Shown one piece after another: positions 6,369 through 29,077 of a stretch of DNA of 35,048 nucleotides. The stretch is from an uncultured Methanosarcinales archaeon (GTDB lineage: Archaea > Nanobdellota > Nanobdellia > Woesearchaeales > GW2011-AR9): positions 1 through 35,048 of the forward strand of contig CAYFMJ010000008.1 of NCBI GenBank assembly GCA_964344235.1. Direction: 5' to 3'. Each line of letters opens with the position of its first letter. The first letter of the stretch is position 1. The notes beneath the pieces were generated by a model. It worked only from the letters and a program-made list of their open reading frames with translations, did not search any database and was not told the DNA's origin. Made by a program: the position numbers and the translations under genes.

Positions 6369-6821
6369 ATGGACCAAAAAAGAGCAGCATCAGCAATTAT
6401 CTTTAACTTGGAGGGCGAAGTGCTATTTGCACGAAGAGGACCAAATAAAAGACCGTTTCCAGGAGTATAGTCACTGCCCTCATCTTATGTTAGGGGTGAA
6501 GGGGACCCAGTTGATTACCTCGTTGCAGCTACAAAAAGAAAATTAGGAATTGATATTGCAACTGTGGAAGTATTGGGAGAAATGCGTGCCCTACAGGCTG
6601 ATTATGAGCTTCACATGGTTGATTATGTCGCATGGATTTTGGAAGGCACACCAGTACCTGACGGAGAGAATTTTACAGAAGTGGATTACTTTGATCCGCT
6701 TGCAAGACTTGGGCATTTAGACCGATCAAAAATGGGGCTTTGTACTCAAACACTTCTGAGAGAGTTGGAACGTGATCCGTTGTTATGGCAGAGATATGCT
6801 ATTAGAGAACCAACTGCTTAA
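6369..6821 (+). pseudogene. NUDIX-fold protein interrupted by an in-frame TAG
   Basis: MDQKRAASAIIFNLEGEVLFARRGPNKRPFPGV*SLPSS continues in frame into ORF 6564-6821. TAG at 6468-6470 sits where NUDIX proteins have W (PGxWxLP). Confidence 0.8.
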
Positions 6822-6883: not shown

Positions 6884-7897
6884 ATGGTTAGAGTTGCTAT
6901 CAATGGATTCGGAAGAATTGGCAGGATGATGCTGCGAGCAGGGTTTAATGATAAAAAATTAAATGTGGTAGCAGTAAACGATTTAACTGATACAAAAACA
7001 TTAGCGCACCTCTTCAAATACGATTCTGTGCATGGAACGTTTCCGGGAAAAGTGAGTTTTACAAAAAATTCTTTAACAATTGGCAAGAGAAAAATCAAAG
7101 TATTTGCTGAGAAAGATCCCGCACAATTACCGTGGAAAGATCTTAAAATCGATGTGGTTGTTGAAAGTACGGGACGGTTTAGAGATCCCAAAGCTGCAGC
7201 GGCCCATTTAACTGCAGGTGCGAGAAAAGTTCTTCTGTCAGCAACGTTTAGATCAAAAGAGGGTAAGGTGCCAAGTCATGCGATTACGGTAGTGAAGGGA
7301 GTTAATCATACAAAATATAACAGAAAGAAACATACCATCGTTTCCAACGCCTCTTGTACAACAAACAACGTTGCACCGGTGTTGAAAGTTATTCAAGAAA
7401 AAGTAGGGATTAAGAGGTGTTCATTCAATACTATTCATGGATACACCTCTAGTCAAAGAATTGTTGATTTGCCGCATAAAGATTTACGACGAGCTCGAGC
7501 TGCCGCTATTAACATTGTCCCTACAAGTACAAGTGCTGATAAAGCTGCAGTATTAACACTGCCTGGTTTGAAAGGGAAGTTAAGAGGGTTTGCATTCAGA
7601 GTTCCGATAGTCAATGGGAGTGTGACTGAATTTACTATTGAAACGAATAAATCAGTAACGGTTGACGGCGTAAACAAATGGTTTGCGGGTGCTGCACGGG
7701 GAAAAATGAAAAGTGTTATTGCATACTCTGCTGAGGAGTTAGTGTCGACAGATATTATTGGGAATCCACATTGTGCTATTTTTGATTCAAAATTAACAAC
7801 CGTTGTTGATAAAAAGCTGCTACACGTTGTAGCGTGGTATGACAACGAGTGGGGTTACAGTAATCGAATGGTGGAACTGATTAAGCACATTGCGTGA
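6884..7897 (+). CDS. gap: Type I (bacterial/eukaryotic class) glyceraldehyde-3-phosphate dehydrogenase
   Basis: INGFGRIGR, SNASCTTN (catalytic Cys), TIHGYT (catalytic His), AFRVP, WYDNEWGYS. SD GAGGTG upstream. Confidence 0.96.
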   Translation: MVRVAINGFGRIGRMMLRAGFNDKKLNVVAVNDLTDTKTLAHLFKYDSVHGTFPGKVSFTKNSLTIGKRKIKVFAEKDPAQLPWKDLKIDVVVESTGRFRDPKAAAAHLTAGARKVLLSATFRSKEGKVPSHAITVVKGVNHTKYNRKKHTIVSNASCTTNNVAPVLKVIQEKVGIKRCSFNTIHGYTSSQRIVDLPHKDLRRARAAAINIVPTSTSADKAAVLTLPGLKGKLRGFAFRVPIVNGSVTEFTIETNKSVTVDGVNKWFAGAARGKMKSVIAYSAEELVSTDIIGNPHCAIFDSKLTTVVDKKLLHVVAWYDNEWGYSNRMVELIKHIA

Positions 7898-9790
7898 TTA
7901 TTCAAAAAACAACTTCTTGACTCCATTTACCTTTCTCACACGACCAATGAGATTCTGTAAGTGTTCTAAGTCTCGTGGAATAACGTTGAATGAACACTGT
8001 GCATAGTTATTTCCAATTAATTTCGCTTTCGCCTCTTTCACCTCAAAACCAGTATTAGCAATAGTATGAAGTAAATCAGCAAGTAAACCACTTCGTTCAT
8101 CTGCTTCAACATAGAATTTTATTTTTTGGTTGAATGTATTACGCCACTGTACAGGGAGCCATCTATTTGATTCTTTCAGTGCTTGCCTACAGCCGTTCCA
8201 GTGTACAGAGATTATTTTTTTCTTTGTGAGAATACCGACAATCTCATCACCTGGAATTGCTAAACAACATTTTGCCAAGATACAACTTGCTTTAGGAAAT
8301 TCCTCTGAAAGAACAAGCGTTCCCTGTTCCTCCGTAACTTCTGGTTTAAATGACCGGAAATAAATGCCCGGCAGAGATTCATATTGTTTCAAAGACTTTC
8401 TAATTTTCTGACGAGATTTAGCAGAGGTAACAATCTTAATCCAACTTCGCCGCGGTCGTTGATTTTTGTTTGTAACCACTTCGACAACATCCCCCGAAAC
8501 CAGTTTATGTTTGATTGGAACGAACCTACCATTAACTCGTGCACCCACGGTTTGAGAACCAACTTCTTCATGCACCGAGAACGCAAAGTCTAGAACGGTT
8601 GAAGAGCGAGGGAGTTCTTTGACATCTCCCTTTGGTGTGTAACAATAGATTTTGTCACCAAAAAGATCTACTTTAAGAGTTTCAAGAAATTCTTTATTCT
8701 CAATGTTCTTCTGCATGTCAAGAACACCACGTAACCAGGCAATTTTTTTCTCAAACTTCTCTTCTGATTTACTGCCTTTGTATTTCCAATGCGCTGCTAA
8801 TCCCTCTTCTGCAAACTCGTCCATCTCAGGTGTTCTAATTTGTACTTCTGCTATCTTGCCATCAGGTAATTTAATACCAGTGTGTAGAGAACGGTAAAAG
8901 TTTGGTTTGGGATTGGCGATGTAATCTTTCAATCTACCTGAAAGGGGTTCGAAGTTTTCATGTAAGATTCCGAGGAGCGCGTAGCAATCTCTTTCTGTGG
9001 GAACGATAGCACGTAAGCCGATTAAATCATATTGCTGGGAGAAGCTGAGACCCTTCTTCTGCATTTTTTTGTAAATGCTGTAGATGTGTTTCGGTCTGCC
9101 TTTGAGTTTTGTTATTTGGATTTGATCATTAACAATGTCTTTGATTAATGAAAGAGCCCCTTCAACATTTCGCTCTCTTTTCTCTCTGGATTCTTCCAGA
9201 AAGTTCTGGATTTGTTGATGTTTTTTCGGATTGAGGTTCTGAAAAGCAACGTCTTCTAACTGTACTCGAATTCTTTCTAATCCTAAACGGTAGGCCAGAG
9301 GAGCATAGATGCTGAGAACTTCCTCCGAAAGTCGTTTCTGTTCTTCTGGTGGGAAGATGTGGACGCTCCGCATGTTGTCTAACTTGTTTGCAAGTTTAAC
9401 GAGCATAACTCTAATGTCACCCAAAGTGGTTAAGATGATTTTTCGGAGTGCTTCGGAGTCTAACTGCGGGTTTTTTGATTTAATTTCGTTAATTTTCCCA
9501 ACTTCACGGATGAAACTAAAGATGGTTTCACCGAAAAATTTTTTGATATGTTTTGCATGTTCAGTATTCTCAAGTGAATGTAGTATCCCTGCAATGACAA
9601 CCTCAGGTGCCGAATTGTTTTGGATTAGAATTTGGCCAACTCTGCAGTTGTGATCAAAGAACGTGTCTCCTACCAATCGTTTTTTTTCAGAAAGTGCTTG
9701 TTCCGCCAAGAGTACAGCTTGCTGAAATTGTTGAAGATCTTCCTCACTATACTGGTGCTCCTGCGCTAAAGTTTGGATCGCTGTCTGCAT
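7898..9790 (-). CDS. relA: Long RelA/SpoT homolog (degenerate HD, synthetase, TGS, ZFD, ACT)
   Basis: GRPKHIYSIYKKM, YDLIGLR, KDYIANPKPNFYRSLHT, EVQIRT, AAHWKYK. TGS motif TPKGD...DFAFSVH; C-terminal CCLAIPGD and SGLLADL. Confidence 0.95.
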   Translation of the reverse strand: MQTAIQTLAQEHQYSEEDLQQFQQAVLLAEQALSEKKRLVGDTFFDHNCRVGQILIQNNSAPEVVIAGILHSLENTEHAKHIKKFFGETIFSFIREVGKINEIKSKNPQLDSEALRKIILTTLGDIRVMLVKLANKLDNMRSVHIFPPEEQKRLSEEVLSIYAPLAYRLGLERIRVQLEDVAFQNLNPKKHQQIQNFLEESREKRERNVEGALSLIKDIVNDQIQITKLKGRPKHIYSIYKKMQKKGLSFSQQYDLIGLRAIVPTERDCYALLGILHENFEPLSGRLKDYIANPKPNFYRSLHTGIKLPDGKIAEVQIRTPEMDEFAEEGLAAHWKYKGSKSEEKFEKKIAWLRGVLDMQKNIENKEFLETLKVDLFGDKIYCYTPKGDVKELPRSSTVLDFAFSVHEEVGSQTVGARVNGRFVPIKHKLVSGDVVEVVTNKNQRPRRSWIKIVTSAKSRQKIRKSLKQYESLPGIYFRSFKPEVTEEQGTLVLSEEFPKASCILAKCCLAIPGDEIVGILTKKKIISVHWNGCRQALKESNRWLPVQWRNTFNQKIKFYVEADERSGLLADLLHTIANTGFEVKEAKAKLIGNNYAQCSFNVIPRDLEHLQNLIGRVRKVNGVKKLFFE

Positions 9791-9837
9791 TGAGGGTTAA
9801 AAGGGTTGATTATTAAAAAGGTTTAGGAAGGAAAAAT

Positions 9838-11067
9838 CTATTTCCCCAGAAACTCTTCTATTCTCAATAACTGGTTGTATTTCGCTGTGCGTTCCCCCCT
9901 ACACGGAGCACCTGCTTTGATCATACCACAACCTAACGCAACAGCAAGATCAGCAATAAAGGAATCCTCTGTCTCACCGCTTCTGTGAGAAACCATTACG
10001 TTCCATCCAGCATCCATCGCTAGTTTAGCAGCGTCTAACGCTTCCGTTACTGTGCCGATTTGGTTAACCTTAAGAAGAAGACAGTTACCTGCTTTGTTAC
10101 GGATTGCTTTCTCCACTCGTTGTGGATTACTAACGGTAAGATCGTCAGTAACGATTTGAATGTTTGTTTTTTGTTTCAGAGTGTTGAAAGACGTGAAGTC
10201 ATCTTGTTGAAATGGATCTTCGATTGAAATGATTGGAAAGCGTTTGGTGAGGGAGAGGTAATAGGAAGTTAATTGGTCTGCGGTCATTGTTTTACCACCA
10301 AGTTTGTATTTTTTGTTAGAGTAGAAATCAGACGCTGCTGCGTCGATGGCAATGTTACATTTGTTCTTATAGCCAGCCGTGTTGATTGCTTTCGTCAGGG
10401 CTTTGAGAGCGTCTGTTGTGTGTTTATATGGTGGAGCGAAGCCACCTTCATCAGCAACGTTGGTTCCATTTACCCATTCTTTGTGGAGTTGTTGTTTGAG
10501 TGTGTGGTATATTTCCGCTACTATCCTGATATTTTCTTTAAATGATTTTGATTGAGGAACAAGCATGAATTCTTGGATCGCTAAACTGTTATCAGCATGT
10601 TTGCCGCCGTTAATAACATTGCAGAACGGCGTAGGGAGTTTTGCTTTCTTAGAACATTGTGGGAAGAGGTTAAGATATTGAAAGAGAGGTTTACCTTCCG
10701 ACTTTGCCCCAGCTCTCGCACATGCAAGAGAGATAGCTAAGATAGCGTTGGCACCGAAGTTGCTTTTGTTCACAGTGCCGTCTTTCTCCACCATCAATGA
10801 ATCTATTTCTCTTTGTCTAGTACAATCCATACCGCGGAGTAGCGGGGCAATTTTTGTGTGAATGGTGGAGATTGCTTTCTGCACACCTAAACCATTGTAA
10901 CGAGATTTGAAGTCACGTAACTCTTGTGCCTCATGTTCTCCTTTAGAAGCACCACTGGGCACGGAAGCAGTTCCCTGGAAGTTCTCTGTGAAGACAGTTA
11001 CTTCAACCGTTGGGTTGCCTCGGCTGTCAAGAATTTCCCGCGCTCGAATGTCGTTGATGTATGGCAT
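9838..11067 (-). CDS. eno: Enolase
   Basis: ILDSRGNPTVEV, VPSGAS, DEGGFAP, SIEDPF, LLKVNQIG, VSHRSGETED. Confidence 0.98.
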   Translation of the reverse strand: MPYINDIRAREILDSRGNPTVEVTVFTENFQGTASVPSGASKGEHEAQELRDFKSRYNGLGVQKAISTIHTKIAPLLRGMDCTRQREIDSLMVEKDGTVNKSNFGANAILAISLACARAGAKSEGKPLFQYLNLFPQCSKKAKLPTPFCNVINGGKHADNSLAIQEFMLVPQSKSFKENIRIVAEIYHTLKQQLHKEWVNGTNVADEGGFAPPYKHTTDALKALTKAINTAGYKNKCNIAIDAAASDFYSNKKYKLGGKTMTADQLTSYYLSLTKRFPIISIEDPFQQDDFTSFNTLKQKTNIQIVTDDLTVSNPQRVEKAIRNKAGNCLLLKVNQIGTVTEALDAAKLAMDAGWNVMVSHRSGETEDSFIADLAVALGCGMIKAGAPCRGERTAKYNQLLRIEEFLGK

Positions 11068-27731: not shown

Positions 27732-28991
27732 CTAGGAGAACTTTGGTTTGGCAATGGTTTTTACGCGTTCTCTTACATAGGGGCGTTTAATAATTGCAAC
27801 AATAGCGTTTGCTAATTGAGGATGTTCAACGGTAACACGAGCCATGATGTGTTTGCCTTTGGTAAATGTGTTTTTATTTTTCTTTTTGAACTGTTTGACA
27901 TGTTCTTTCAGTTCAAGAGGTGGACCCTGTCGGATTTCTTCACTAGGACGTTCGCTTGTTTTTGTGATGTAATAGAATATCGCTTTCTCACCTGGCTGCC
28001 AAGACCAATCTGCCTTCAGTACGGTGAACGGTGCTAATTCTTTTCTAATATGGTTAAATGATTTTACTAACTTGACACCAACAACGTCTTCCTTGCCTTT
28101 GAGTGATGTAACTGTAAGATAAACAAGGTGTTGATTTTTTTTCAGTTGTTTTGAGAGTGTTGTGAAAGACACATCTTCCTGTTCGAAGAATGAAACAGAT
28201 GGTTTTGCGAGATATGCTTTCGCTGTTTTTATGAGTGCTTTGTATTTCTGTTCTGAGAGAGCTGCAGCTGCATTTCTGTTCTTGTCAACTGGATCAATTA
28301 AAACTAGCGGGGAAACGGTTTTTGATTTGTTTAAATGGAATAACGCATCTCCCTTTGGATAGAATTTGCTGACATCGATGATTTGTTTCTTTTTCCATTT
28401 CTGTGTTGTTTGTAATAGTTTTTCAAATGATCCGTAAAATGCTACAAGTACTTCTACCATATATCCACTAAATCCAGCAATGTACGATTCTGCACCATAG
28501 AGTTTGTTGGCCTTGAAGAACTGTTTCGCTATCCTCACTTCATCTTTGAGTTTCTTTGTGTGAGCGTTAACCCATTTTGCATGTAAAGGAGAGACGTCAG
28601 TAATATTGCAGGCTTGGGCTGCTTTGGTGATTGAGAGAATAGGAATTACTTCAAATTCGATATTTTGGAATTGTAGTTGGAAATAGTCACGGCTGCCATG
28701 AAGTCGTTCTATTGTGAGTTTAGGGAATGATTTCTTGACAATCGGCGCAAGAATCTCCGAAAGAGAAGATGATTTATTTGCATATTGTTTGTAGTTAAAT
28801 AATACAAAAACATCAACATCATGATTGCCAGATAACCATGTATCTCTTGATCCACTCCCGCCAACGACTGCTTTTGCATCTTTTAAATTTTTATTGAGTT
28901 TTTCAAGGAAAGAAGTGGTCACTTGCTTGAAATGTTGGATCTCTTCTCCACTCGGTTTTATTGTTTTAAGGACTTCTTGATAAATGGTCAT
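27732..28991 (-). CDS. cca: Archaeal class I CCA-adding enzyme
   Basis: GGSGSRDTWLSGNHDVDVF, HGSRDY, YGAESYIAGFSGY, LIDPVDKNRNAAAALS. Confidence 0.95.
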   Translation of the reverse strand: MTIYQEVLKTIKPSGEEIQHFKQVTTSFLEKLNKNLKDAKAVVGGSGSRDTWLSGNHDVDVFVLFNYKQYANKSSSLSEILAPIVKKSFPKLTIERLHGSRDYFQLQFQNIEFEVIPILSITKAAQACNITDVSPLHAKWVNAHTKKLKDEVRIAKQFFKANKLYGAESYIAGFSGYMVEVLVAFYGSFEKLLQTTQKWKKKQIIDVSKFYPKGDALFHLNKSKTVSPLVLIDPVDKNRNAAAALSEQKYKALIKTAKAYLAKPSVSFFEQEDVSFTTLSKQLKKNQHLVYLTVTSLKGKEDVVGVKLVKSFNHIRKELAPFTVLKADWSWQPGEKAIFYYITKTSERPSEEIRQGPPLELKEHVKQFKKKNKNTFTKGKHIMARVTVEHPQLANAIVAIIKRPYVRERVKTIAKPKFS

Positions 28992-29077
28992 GGACTTAAC
29001 TTTATTTCTCACTATATAAATTTTGTTTACGCAAAGGGGTAACACAGGTTTTTATATGAGCTGTGTTTTCTGCGAGT

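What the first reader, a model, noticed from the sequence alone, without database searches (positions are those of the whole stretch)
7898..9790. Full-length RelA/SpoT homolog in an archaeon with an intact synthetase and a dead hydrolase
Seen in sequence: the HD motif is ILHSLEN (HD changed to HS) and KLADRLHN has become KLANKLDN, so two of the acidic Mn2+ ligands are lost. The synthetase motifs are intact with the RxKD variant (RLKD), and TGS, ZFD and ACT domains are retained. The protein is only 630 aa, with a short region between TGS and ZFD. Established: long RSHs are bacterial, activated by ribosomes and uncharged tRNA, and archaea are not known for a (p)ppGpp stringent response. Synthesis-only RelA of E. 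coli carries ExDD, whereas RxKD is typical of bifunctional Rel/SpoT. Inference: an archaeal alarmone synthetase that needs a separate hydrolase, or makes a nucleotide acting on a host or partner.
Basis: partly seen in the sequence, partly recalled or inferred. Interest (0 to 1): 0.78.

Follow-up and report, generated by a model that had tools for sequence, protein, structure and literature searches.

The report
Archaeal RelA-like alarmone synthetase, dead hydrolase
A tiny DPANN (Woesearchaeota-type) archaeon carries a complete bacterial-style stringent-response enzyme whose alarm-making half is intact and whose alarm-destroying half is dead, and its genome holds a separate lineage-specific enzyme that probably does the destroying, so (p)ppGpp signalling in archaea becomes directly testable.

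Summary
Window 7898-9790 (-) encodes a 630-aa long RSH: pseudo-HD, SYNTH, TGS, short linker, ZFD and ACT. The hydrolase site is degenerate and the synthetase motifs are intact. The contig is archaeal, from a 1.19-Mb DPANN genome whose homologs are named Woesearchaeota or Nanoarchaeota.

The gene is not an oddity of this genome. Long RSHs occur in about 40% of sampled genomes of the order and phylum, and one 2021 DPANN paper mentions this in a sentence. They form one clan apart from 33 bacterial Rel proteins. All lack about 75 residues of the helical linker between TGS and ZFD.

Hydrolase death is derived. It holds in 24 of 24 genomes of the window's GTDB family and in 7 of 38 other archaeal long RSHs, needing at least two events.

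It is a 391-aa protein on contig 3 with an RSH-type hydrolase fold and every catalytic residue invariant. It is found only in this family.

Best reading: a RelA/SpoT-like division of labour reinvented in an archaeon. No enzyme activity has been tested. Sister lineages have a dead-hydrolase RSH without this partner, which weakens "needs".

Verdict: new variant of a known kind, interest 0.6.

The parts
7898..9790 (-). Long RSH gene, 630 aa, of RelA-like type [hS]: dead hydrolase, intact synthetase
   Evidence: ORF. Pfam domains. TIGR00691 scores 559 bits against a cut-off of 499. B. subtilis Rel 6yxa matches at E 4.5e-119. AlphaFold2 model has mean pLDDT 82.8.
9278..9718 (-). Pseudo-hydrolase (HD_4) domain, aa 25-171. 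HD is HS, ED is EN, KLADRLHN is KLANKLDN and HP is HN.
   Evidence: These positions vary freely among 24 family-f1 orthologs. It is the least conserved domain within f1, at 51.6% mean identity against 70.1% for SYNTH.
8771..9100 (-). Synthetase (RelA_SpoT) domain, aa 231-340, with all catalytic motifs and the RLKD variant of RxKD
   Evidence: It is the most conserved domain within f1.
8471..8650 (-). TGS domain, aa 381-440. His407 is invariant in 22 archaeal long RSHs.
   Evidence: The model shows a beta-grasp strand pattern.
8291..8470 (-). Shortened alpha-helical (AH) linker, aa 441-500: one helix (457-472) and a low-confidence stretch (474-488)
   Evidence: The segment from D434 to C508 is 74 aa here. 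The archaeal median is 74 (63-87, n=48) and the bacterial median is 150 (111-165, n=33). Other orders of the class have 72-75. Model.
8156..8290 (-). ZFD/RIS domain, aa 501-545, with C508 C509 H530 C534 invariant
   Evidence: (second stretch to 8fr8).
7913..8122 (-). ACT/RRM domain, aa 557-626
   Evidence: Pfam ACT_4 at 1.2e-09. The model shows a beta-alpha-beta-beta-alpha-beta pattern.
9810..9819 (-). TATA-like box TTTTTAATAA, 20-29 nt upstream of the ATG in the 47-nt gap after enolase. It is a candidate archaeal promoter for a near-leaderless transcript.
   Evidence: Read directly from the sequence. This is inference only.
9838..11067 (-). Enolase, the conserved upstream co-directional neighbour
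   Evidence: Pfam and TIGR01060. Found upstream of the RSH in 11 of the 22 other f1 loci examined and in none of the non-f1 loci; flanks were short, so absences are soft.
6884..7897 (+). Type I GAPDH, the conserved convergent neighbour. Its last base abuts the last base of the RSH ORF.
   Evidence: TIGR01534 scores 392 bits against a cut-off of 367. Synteny.

Best explanation
The gene encodes a monofunctional, RelA-like long RSH of a DPANN archaeon. The genome has 1.19 Mb, and homologs are named Woesearchaeota or Nanoarchaeota.

Shown: the N-terminal HD domain is kept as a folded pseudo-hydrolase. It has lost two of the four Mn2+ ligands, part of the catalytic ED pair and other site residues. 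The synthetase domain, TGS (with its conserved His), ZFD (CCHC) and ACT/RRM are under strong constraint.

Inferred: the enzyme transfers pyrophosphate from ATP to GDP or GTP to make (p)ppGpp. Its C-terminal sensor domains most likely couple this to uncharged tRNA on the archaeal ribosome. They would do so through an architecture in which the helical linker between TGS and ZFD is about 75 residues shorter than in bacteria. That shortening is shared by all archaeal long RSHs examined.

Inferred: in this genome and its GTDB family, the alarmone is removed by a separate 391-aa protein, here called HD391 (G000 contig 3, 82650-83822, +). HD391 has a small-alarmone-hydrolase fold, all catalytic residues and a family-specific helical C-terminal domain. 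The family would thus have re-created the RelA (make) and SpoT/SAH (break) division of labour.

The long RSH itself descends from one old entry into, or presence in, this archaeal class. Hydrolase loss is a later, repeated event.
For: Identity and domains.

Archaeal setting:
- The window holds cca_archaeal TIGR03671 above its cut-off, a family B polymerase and a Rad50-like gene.
- The genome is 96% complete with 0.6% contamination, and GC content is even across the window.
- Orthologs sit on contigs of 0.4-1.5 Mb.
- The order PolB, DUF1385, Rad50, enolase, RSH, GAPDH, RsmB is conserved in a 63%-identical marine relative.

Hydrolase dead, synthetase alive:
- All 24 f1 long RSHs have variable residues at the HD, ED and KLAD positions, while the synthetase, TGS and ZFD motifs are conserved.
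- The HD-to-SYNTH identity ratio is 0.74 in f1, against 0.90 in intact archaeal and 0.92 in bacterial sets.
- All 33 bacterial Rel proteins keep HD..EDT and KLADRLHN (or a one-residue variant), with the catalytic positions unchanged.

Derived state: in the tree, 33 bacterial proteins separate from 63 archaeal ones (SH-aLRT 96). The f1 clade nests among intact-HD archaeal RSHs, and the dead state needs at least 2 changes.

Short AH.

Partner hydrolase:
- It is the second HD_4 match in the genome.
- R60, H69, H94, D95, E98, E99, D193, H196 and N197 are invariant in 34 sequences.
- The model has pLDDT 87.
- The best structural matches are small alarmone hydrolases and Mesh1, at Z 14.0-14.4 and rmsd 2.2-2.7 A over 165-177 residues. 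Foldseek's top rows are all Rel, SpoT or SAH.
- It is present in 20 of 24 f1 genera. At E 1e-10 it is found in no other family, apart from two distant 430-aa relatives among 198 non-f1 genomes.
- Both genes occur in 19 of 24 f1 relatives.
- No Ppx-GppA is present in the genome.
Against: No activity was measured for either protein.

Co-occurrence inside one family is not independent evidence. Both genes are simply near-universal in f1.

Dead-hydrolase long RSHs in f29, f114, f128 and f138 have no HD391 and no second HD_4 protein, in genomes that are 97-100% complete. An RSH-type partner is therefore not required.

HD391 is not a neighbour of the RSH gene. It reads EE where known enzymes read ED. 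Its clade (with the 430-aa relatives) is separate from both long-RSH HD domains and short SAH-like proteins. The fold family also includes enzymes with other substrates: Mesh1 with NADPH and the (p)ppApp hydrolases.

Ribosome coupling in an archaeon is pure inference, and the AH truncation could equally mean loss of that coupling.

Confidence: 0.62

Rival explanations
1. The RSH is a hydrolase-dead (p)ppGpp synthetase, but HD391 has another job, such as a (p)ppApp, NADPH or other nucleotide phosphohydrolase. The alarmone would then be removed by non-RSH enzymes (Nudix or others), by conversion or by dilution.
For: Four other lineages keep a dead-hydrolase long RSH with no HD391 and no second HD_4 protein. 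The genome has about nine Nudix frames. Structural neighbours of HD391 include Mesh1-NADPH and a (p)ppApp hydrolase. HD391 is not linked to the RSH gene. G006 keeps HD391 without the long RSH.
Against: HD391 keeps the complete RSH-hydrolase residue set invariant. Its sequence matches are to Rel hydrolase domains. It is found only in the family where every long RSH is hydrolase-dead. G006 still has a protein with a divergent RelA_SpoT domain.
Confidence: 0.25
2. The synthetase domain makes a different product, such as pGpp or (p)ppApp. Alternatively the protein is mainly a non-catalytic ribosome or tRNA binding factor.
For: No activity data exist. The archaeal setting lacks the classical bacterial targets (general knowledge). 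The AH linker is remodelled.
Against: All long-RSH synthetase motifs are conserved, and SYNTH is the most constrained domain in f1. The sequence is about 45-50% identical to bona fide Rel over the catalytic half.
Confidence: 0.08
3. The HD domain keeps hydrolase activity through substitute residues, so the enzyme is bifunctional, as NCBI names its orthologs.
For: Orthologs are annotated as bifunctional (p)ppGpp synthetase/hydrolase. H47 and H71 are retained.
Against: Two Mn2+ ligands and the catalytic Asp are lost. The same positions hold G, S, R, K, E, Q, N and Y in orthologs, so there is no selection for any catalytic residue. The annotation is automatic and rests on family membership.
Confidence: 0.03
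4. The gene is bacterial contamination or lies on a chimeric contig.
For: It is a bacterial-type gene, and the neighbouring GAPDH is also the bacterial type I form.
Against: The same window holds an archaeal CCA enzyme, PolB and Rad50. Contamination is 0.6%. Orthologs are present in 21 of 24 genera of the family with conserved synteny. They lie on single-contig or Mb-size archaeal assemblies. The archaeal proteins form their own clan apart from 33 bacterial Rel proteins.
Confidence: 0.01

Closest known systems
Bifunctional long RSH Rel (B. subtilis Rel 6yxa, S. equisimilis RelSeq 1vj7, M. tuberculosis/M. smegmatis-type Rel 8fr8)
   Same: The domain order is the same: HD, SYNTH, TGS, AH, ZFD, ACT. 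The match to 6yxa has E 4.5e-119 over residues 3-470. It has the RxKD-type motif (RLKD) and passes the TIGR00691 cut-off.
   Different: The hydrolase catalytic residues are lost. The AH linker is about 75 residues shorter. The host is an archaeon. It branches outside all 33 sampled bacterial Rel proteins.
E. coli-type RelA [hS] with SpoT [Hs] (Beta- and Gammaproteobacteria)
   Same: The logic is the same: a long RSH with a degenerate pseudo-hydrolase domain that only synthesises, and a second protein that hydrolyses.
   Different: The origin is independent, not in the proteobacterial clade. It keeps RxKD instead of RelA's ExDD; the ExDD rule comes from the literature on RelA and was not tested here. 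It scores 372 bits against the RelA equivalog cut-off of 728. The candidate partner is a 391-aa HD-only protein and not a full-length SpoT.
Small alarmone hydrolases (P. aeruginosa SAH 6yvc, C. glutamicum RelH 7qod, metazoan Mesh1 5vxa), compared with HD391
   Same: The fold matches at Z 14.0-14.4 and rmsd 2.2-2.7 A over nearly the whole SAH. The R, H, HD and D..HN residues are invariant.
   Different: HD391 is twice as long. It has an insert inside the HD domain and a conserved helical C-terminal domain of about 160 aa with no match found. It reads EE in place of ED. Together with 430-aa relatives it forms a separate clan (SH-aLRT 99). Pfam HD_4 scores below its cut-off (24 against 27 bits).
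RelA/SpoT genes reported in DPANN archaea (PMC8407392, 2021)
   Same: This is the same gene family. That paper reports RelA/SpoT in 41.7% of Woesearchaeota and predicts a bacterial origin. I find 44% (89 of 201) in the order.
   Different: That paper gives one sentence from KEGG-type annotation. In the text I read, it describes no hydrolase state, AH truncation, phylogeny or partner hydrolase.

Membership tests
Long RSH (RelA/SpoT family, TIGR00691) | Whole-protein score above the curated family cut-off | tested here: met
   559.2 bits against a cut-off of 499.2.
Long RSH (RelA/SpoT family, TIGR00691) | N-terminal HD-type domain followed by a RelA_SpoT synthetase domain | tested here: met
   HD_4 at aa 25-171 and RelA_SpoT at aa 231-340, both above Pfam cut-offs.
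Long RSH (RelA/SpoT family, TIGR00691) | C-terminal regulatory region with TGS, ZFD/RIS (CCHC) and ACT/RRM | tested here: met
   TGS and ACT_4 are above their cut-offs. C508, C509, H530 and C534 are invariant. The region aligns to Rel 8fr8 residues 657-789.
Long RSH (RelA/SpoT family, TIGR00691) | Full-length alpha-helical (AH) domain between TGS and ZFD | tested here: not met
   74 residues against a bacterial median of 150 (minimum 111). Pfam RelA_AH_RIS scores 19.5 bits, below its cut-off of 23.8. The model has one helix and a disordered stretch.
Bifunctional Rel/SpoT [HS] | Intact hydrolase site: His, His-Asp, Glu-Asp, and Asp plus His-Asn of KLADRLHN | tested here: not met
   The site reads HS, EN and KLANKLDN. 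The SpoT equivalog NF008303 scores 412 bits against a cut-off of 947.
Proteobacterial RelA [hS] | Score above the RelA equivalog cut-off, and placement in the proteobacterial RelA clade | tested here: not met
   NF008124 scores 372 bits against a cut-off of 728. The protein lies in the archaeal clan, away from the four proteobacterial sequences.
Proteobacterial RelA [hS] | Degenerate hydrolase domain with a conserved synthetase | tested here: met
Any (p)ppGpp synthetase | Makes (p)ppGpp from ATP plus GDP or GTP | not testable with these tools
   Only the motifs are conserved.
Small alarmone hydrolase (SAH / Mesh1-like), tested for HD391 on contig 3 | RSH-type HD fold with the catalytic residue set | tested here: met
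   Z 14.0-14.4 to SAH, RelH and Mesh1. R60, H69, H94, D95, E98, D193, H196 and N197 are invariant, and the second acidic residue is E99 instead of D.
Small alarmone hydrolase (SAH / Mesh1-like), tested for HD391 on contig 3 | Single-domain protein of about 170-230 aa | tested here: not met
   391 aa, with a conserved helical C-terminal domain from about residue 270 to 390.
Small alarmone hydrolase (SAH / Mesh1-like), tested for HD391 on contig 3 | Mn2+-dependent hydrolysis of (p)ppGpp | not testable with these tools

The most novel reading that the evidence does not exclude
DPANN archaea of this class run a real, ribosome-coupled stringent response. Their own clade of long RSHs would be remodelled to read uncharged tRNA on archaeal ribosomes, with the helical linker cut by half. 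The window's family would have independently re-invented the RelA/SpoT split by killing the RSH hydrolase and recruiting a new kind of stand-alone alarmone hydrolase with a novel C-terminal domain. (p)ppGpp would then be an archaeal second messenger in a large share of uncultured archaeal diversity.
Probability: 0.3. Interest if true: 0.85.

Novelty: new variant of a known kind. Interest (0 to 1): 0.6.

Why it matters
Reference surveys of the RSH superfamily state that archaea lack long RSHs (PMC3153485). Recent reviews of archaeal second messengers say that (p)ppGpp has not been described in archaea and seems unimportant there (PMC8646023, PMC10249747).

This work shows that a distinct, old clade of full-length RSHs sits in roughly 40% of sampled genomes of one large DPANN lineage. 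It has a clade-wide change in the ribosome-contacting linker and repeated loss of the hydrolase. In one family there is also a matching stand-alone hydrolase candidate.

That turns the question 'do any archaea use (p)ppGpp?' into experiments with two clonable proteins. It gives a natural comparison for how long RSHs dock on ribosomes. It also flags a systematic mis-annotation, since hydrolase-dead proteins are named 'bifunctional'.

Tried and rejected
- Contamination or chimera was rejected.
- I tested whether HD391 is a duplicated RSH N-terminal half with a degenerate synthetase domain. It has the same length as a Rel NTD, but the model is all-helical with no alpha/beta synthetase fold, so this was rejected.
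- I tested whether HD391 is a recent copy of the f1 RSH's own HD domain. The HD-domain tree does not support this. HD391 and the 430-aa relatives form a separate clan (SH-aLRT 99), and the origin is unresolved.
- I asked whether hydrolase loss is unique to this family. It is not. It also occurs in f29, f128, f114 and f138.
- I asked whether those other dead-hydrolase lineages have HD391 or any second HD_4 protein. None was found at E 0.01.
- A Ppx-GppA homolog in the genome was not found.
- The gene neighbourhood of HD391 (an Fe-S assembly-like gene upstream and an OmdA/YdeI-like gene downstream) gave no functional link.
- A first impression that RSH and HD391 lie 2 kb apart on a marine contig was wrong, as the context look-up showed.
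- Foldseek alone gave only E of about 3e-3 for HD391 because only half the model aligns. The VIA-align second look was needed. The C-terminal domain of HD391 was not folded and searched on its own, so I do not claim it is a new fold.
- Literature searches on Woesearchaeota, DPANN or Nanoarchaeota with ppGpp or alarmone found only the one sentence in PMC8407392. The library lacks most subscription journals, so an earlier description cannot be excluded.
Full report
**1. The observation**

Window 7898-9790 (minus strand) is an ATG-to-stop ORF of 630 aa. Pfam places these domains:
- HD_4 at aa 25-171;
- RelA_SpoT at 231-340;
- TGS at 381-440;
- a sub-threshold RelA_AH_RIS match at 429-530;
- ACT_4 at 557-626.

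NCBIfam TIGR00691 (RelA/SpoT family) scores 559 bits against a cut-off of 499. The SpoT and RelA equivalogs are far below theirs, at 412 against 947 and 372 against 728.

The best solved relative is B. subtilis Rel (6yxa, E 4.5e-119, query 3-470). A mycobacterial-type Rel (8fr8) also aligns to the ZFD and ACT part, query 499-626. In the printed alignment the query reads 'gilhsl.ente' where Rel reads 'gflhdvvedt', and 'klankldnmrs' where Rel reads 'kladrlhnmrt'.

From published Rel structures (my knowledge of RelSeq, not tested here), the Mn2+ ligands are one His, the His-Asp pair and the Asp of KLAD. The query keeps both His and has lost both Asp (to Ser and Asn). It has also lost the Asp of the catalytic Glu-Asp pair. 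The synthetase motifs, the ZFD CC..H..C and the TGS His are all present.

**2. Whose gene is it**

The window is contig 8 of a 1.19-Mb assembly with 37 contigs, 96% completeness and 0.6% contamination. The same window encodes an archaeal class I CCA-adding enzyme (TIGR03671 above its cut-off), a family B DNA polymerase and a Rad50-like ATPase. GC content is even across the window.

The nearest database proteins (57-66% identical, 626-645 aa) are named Candidatus Woesearchaeota, Nanoarchaeota or Nanoarchaeia archaeon. Some lie on contigs up to 0.93 Mb. A 63%-identical marine relative has the same gene order: PolB, DUF1385, Rad50-like, enolase, RSH, convergent GAPDH, RsmB. Enolase upstream and type I GAPDH downstream recur in many of the f1 loci examined and in none of the others; flanks were short, so absences are soft. 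The contig is archaeal and not chimeric.

A TTTTTAATAA box lies 20-29 nt before the ATG. This looks like an archaeal promoter for a near-leaderless mRNA, which is inference.

**3. How common it is**

The long RSH is in 21 of 24 other genera of the window's GTDB family, coded f1. A RelA_SpoT domain is in 89 of 201 genomes sampled from the order. About 70 of these are ORFs of 617-690 aa. That tally includes one genome, G206, which the tool flags as unpublished; no other claim rests on it. A long RSH is in 61 of 151 high-quality genomes sampled from the phylum, including 12 from other orders of the class.

This agrees with the only literature mention I found. PMC8407392 (2021) reports RelA/SpoT in 41.7% of Woesearchaeota and other DPANN phyla and predicts a bacterial origin. 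By contrast, the RSH survey PMC3153485 states that archaea lack long RSHs. Reviews of archaeal second messengers say that (p)ppGpp has not been described in archaea.

**4. A distinct archaeal clade with a short linker**

I built a maximum-likelihood tree (IQ-TREE LG+G4, short search, SH-aLRT support only) from 63 archaeal long RSHs and 33 bacterial Rel proteins. The bacterial set came from more than 12 phyla and was chosen as the best tblastn matches in one genome per species. All bacterial sequences fall on one side of a branch (96) and all archaeal ones on the other (the 82-row tree gave 99). No sampled bacterial phylum is a nearer relative, so a donor is not identified.

Segment lengths are the same in archaea and bacteria everywhere except between TGS and ZFD. 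There the archaeal median is 74 residues (63-87, n=48) and the bacterial median is 150 (111-165, n=33). Thirteen further sequences from other families and orders have 72-75. The AlphaFold2 model (pLDDT 82.8) shows well-formed HD, SYNTH, TGS, ZFD and ACT folds. Only one helix (457-472) and a low-confidence stretch lie where bacterial enzymes have the AH domain.

**5. Hydrolase death is derived and repeated**

- All 24 f1 long RSHs examined have non-catalytic and variable residues at the HD, ED and KLAD positions. Examples are HG, QG, NG, RR, QE and YK, and KLAxKLDN with x = N, A, D, T, I, L, K, E, C or S. Their synthetase, TGS and ZFD motifs are nearly invariant.
- Of 38 other archaeal long RSHs, 31 keep LLHD..ED and KLADRLHN.
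- Seven do not: f29, f128, two in f114, and three in f138, which belongs to another order. All seven keep the EVQIRT-type and RxKDY-type stretches. The full motif set was printed for f29 and f114.
- All 33 bacterial proteins are intact.
- On the tree the dead state needs at least two changes. One is f114. The other is a weakly supported group of f138, f29, f128 and f1, and f1 nests among intact forms.
- Within f1 the HD domain is the least conserved domain (51.6% mean pairwise identity) and SYNTH the most (70.1%). In intact archaeal and bacterial sets the two are close, at 52 against 58 and 56 against 60.

This is the signature of a retained pseudo-hydrolase, as in RelA.

**6. The separate hydrolase**

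Searching the whole genome with Pfam HD_4 gives the RSH and one more frame, on contig 3. It is a 391-aa protein, here called HD391, containing ...FLHPLN......LVHDYVEE... and ...KLADRMHN....

- *Sequence.* It scores just below the HD_4 cut-off (24 against 27 bits). Its only PDB and NCBIfam sequence matches are Rel hydrolase domains.
- *Family size.* Its family has 262 members in 5.8 billion proteins. Nearly all are 380-410 aa, mostly 'hypothetical protein' of Woesearchaeota.
- *Conservation.* In 34 aligned members R60, G63, H69, P70, N72, H94, D95, E98, E99, D102, K190, L191, D193, R194, H196 and N197 are invariant. That is the whole RSH-hydrolase site, with EE in place of ED.
- *Structure.* The model (pLDDT 87, pTM 0.87) is all-helical. 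Foldseek's top rows are all SpoT, Rel or SAH. VIA-align gives Z 14.4, 14.0 and 14.1 at rmsd 2.3, 2.7 and 2.2 A over 166, 176 and 166 residues. The targets are P. aeruginosa SAH, C. glutamicum RelH and human Mesh1, and the alignments cover almost the whole targets. Helical proteins can reach such Z by chance. Here the fold match, the motif set and the sequence matches agree.
- *Distribution.* HD391 is in 20 of 24 f1 genera and in none of 16 other families with the protein query. With a profile at E 1e-10 it is in 3 of 3 f1 genomes. Among 198 non-f1 genomes of the order it matched only two, as distant 430-aa relatives.
- *Co-occurrence in f1 relatives.* Both genes are present in 19. The RSH alone is in 2 (91% and 93% complete). 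HD391 alone is in 1. Neither is in 2 (77% and 89% complete). The HD391-only genome, G006, has a 443-aa protein with a divergent RelA_SpoT domain.
- *Wider search.* A profile search of 1.84 billion representatives finds 55 proteins at E 1e-30. A tail of 420-460-aa proteins follows, and one of them carries the name HD domain-containing protein of Woesearchaeota.
- *Origin.* In a tree of HD domains, HD391 and these relatives form their own clan (99). The clan is apart from long-RSH HD domains and short SAH-like proteins, so the origin is unresolved.

**7. Reading**

Shown:
- a full-length RSH in an archaeal chromosome;
- hydrolase residues gone and unconstrained;
- synthetase and sensor domains constrained;
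- a clade-wide linker deletion;
- a family-restricted HD protein with a complete alarmone-hydrolase site.

Inferred:
- the RSH makes (p)ppGpp;
- its TGS, ZFD and ACT domains still sense uncharged tRNA on ribosomes. The role of the TGS His in reading the tRNA 3' end is from the bacterial literature and was not tested here;
- HD391 degrades the product.

The closest analogy is the RelA/SpoT split of Beta- and Gammaproteobacteria, or SAS/SAH pairs. Here it arose independently, and the RxKD-type motif is retained.

The main weakness is that four related lineages have a dead-hydrolase RSH and no detectable RSH-type hydrolase, in genomes 97-100% complete. Either another enzyme class can clear the alarmone (the window's genome has about nine Nudix frames and no Ppx-GppA), or HD391 is not needed for that.

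**8. Verdict**

Presence of RelA/SpoT in DPANN archaea is already in print, and orthologs are in GenBank, mis-named 'bifunctional'. In the searchable literature I did not find the following described:
- the separate archaeal clade with a halved AH linker;
- the repeated hydrolase loss;
- the f1-specific long SAH-like partner.

This is a new variant of a known kind, with interest 0.6.

Noticed in passing
window 6378-6695 (+): A Nudix-like frame (PF00293, E 1.5e-4) has one in-frame TAG. It lies between the acetyltransferase gene and GAPDH and may be a decayed Nudix gene.
   Followed up: no
window 6884-7897 (+): The GAPDH is the bacterial/eukaryal type I form (TIGR01534 above its cut-off) in an archaeon. 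Its last base abuts the last base of the convergent RSH ORF (7897/7898). The enolase, RSH, GAPDH arrangement recurs across family f1.
   Followed up: partly
G020 contig 13 (L030): One f1 genome has a second long RSH with an intact hydrolase. It is almost identical to that of an f80 genome (branch lengths 0.045 and 0.013). This is probably MAG contamination or a very recent transfer.
   Followed up: partly
L078 (CAYIEX010000061.1): A 10-kb contig of a MAG labelled 'uncultured Methanosarcinales archaeon' carries a dead-hydrolase RSH that nests inside family f1. The contig is probably mis-binned.
   Followed up: no
P0294, P0299, P0304, P0311 and others; G166:C14:26622-27536; G210:C67:4525-4986: A wider family of 420-460-aa HD proteins, one of them named from Woesearchaeota, is distantly related to HD391. 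The members have a larger insert after the HD motif. Function is unknown.
   Followed up: partly
G006:C5 (L179:749-2080, -): The smallest f1 genome (0.7 Mb) lacks the long RSH. It has a 443-aa protein with a divergent RelA_SpoT domain (RVKDYIKNPKKNGYRSLH, and DIHMET in place of EVQIRT), alongside HD391.
   Followed up: partly
orthologs P0003, P0015 (GenBank MBT4935582.1, MBT5342315.1 and others): NCBI names the close homologs of this protein 'bifunctional (p)ppGpp synthetase/guanosine-3',5'-bis(diphosphate) 3'-pyrophosphohydrolase'. The hydrolase half of that name is unlikely to hold, given that all 24 family-f1 long RSHs examined are hydrolase-dead; the motifs of these two records were not read.
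   Followed up: partly
archaeal long RSHs of f12, f14, f140, f153 (L027, L032, L160-L163, L166): Several archaeal long RSHs with an intact hydrolase carry ExED, ExDD or ExND-type motifs instead of RxKD. So do three Chloroflexota Rel proteins. The acidic motif is therefore not tied to hydrolase loss in these sets.
   Followed up: no
window 27732-29045 (-): The archaeal CCA-adding enzyme also gives weak matches to SMODS and CBASS cyclase models. This is a shared nucleotidyltransferase fold and probably nothing more.
   Followed up: no
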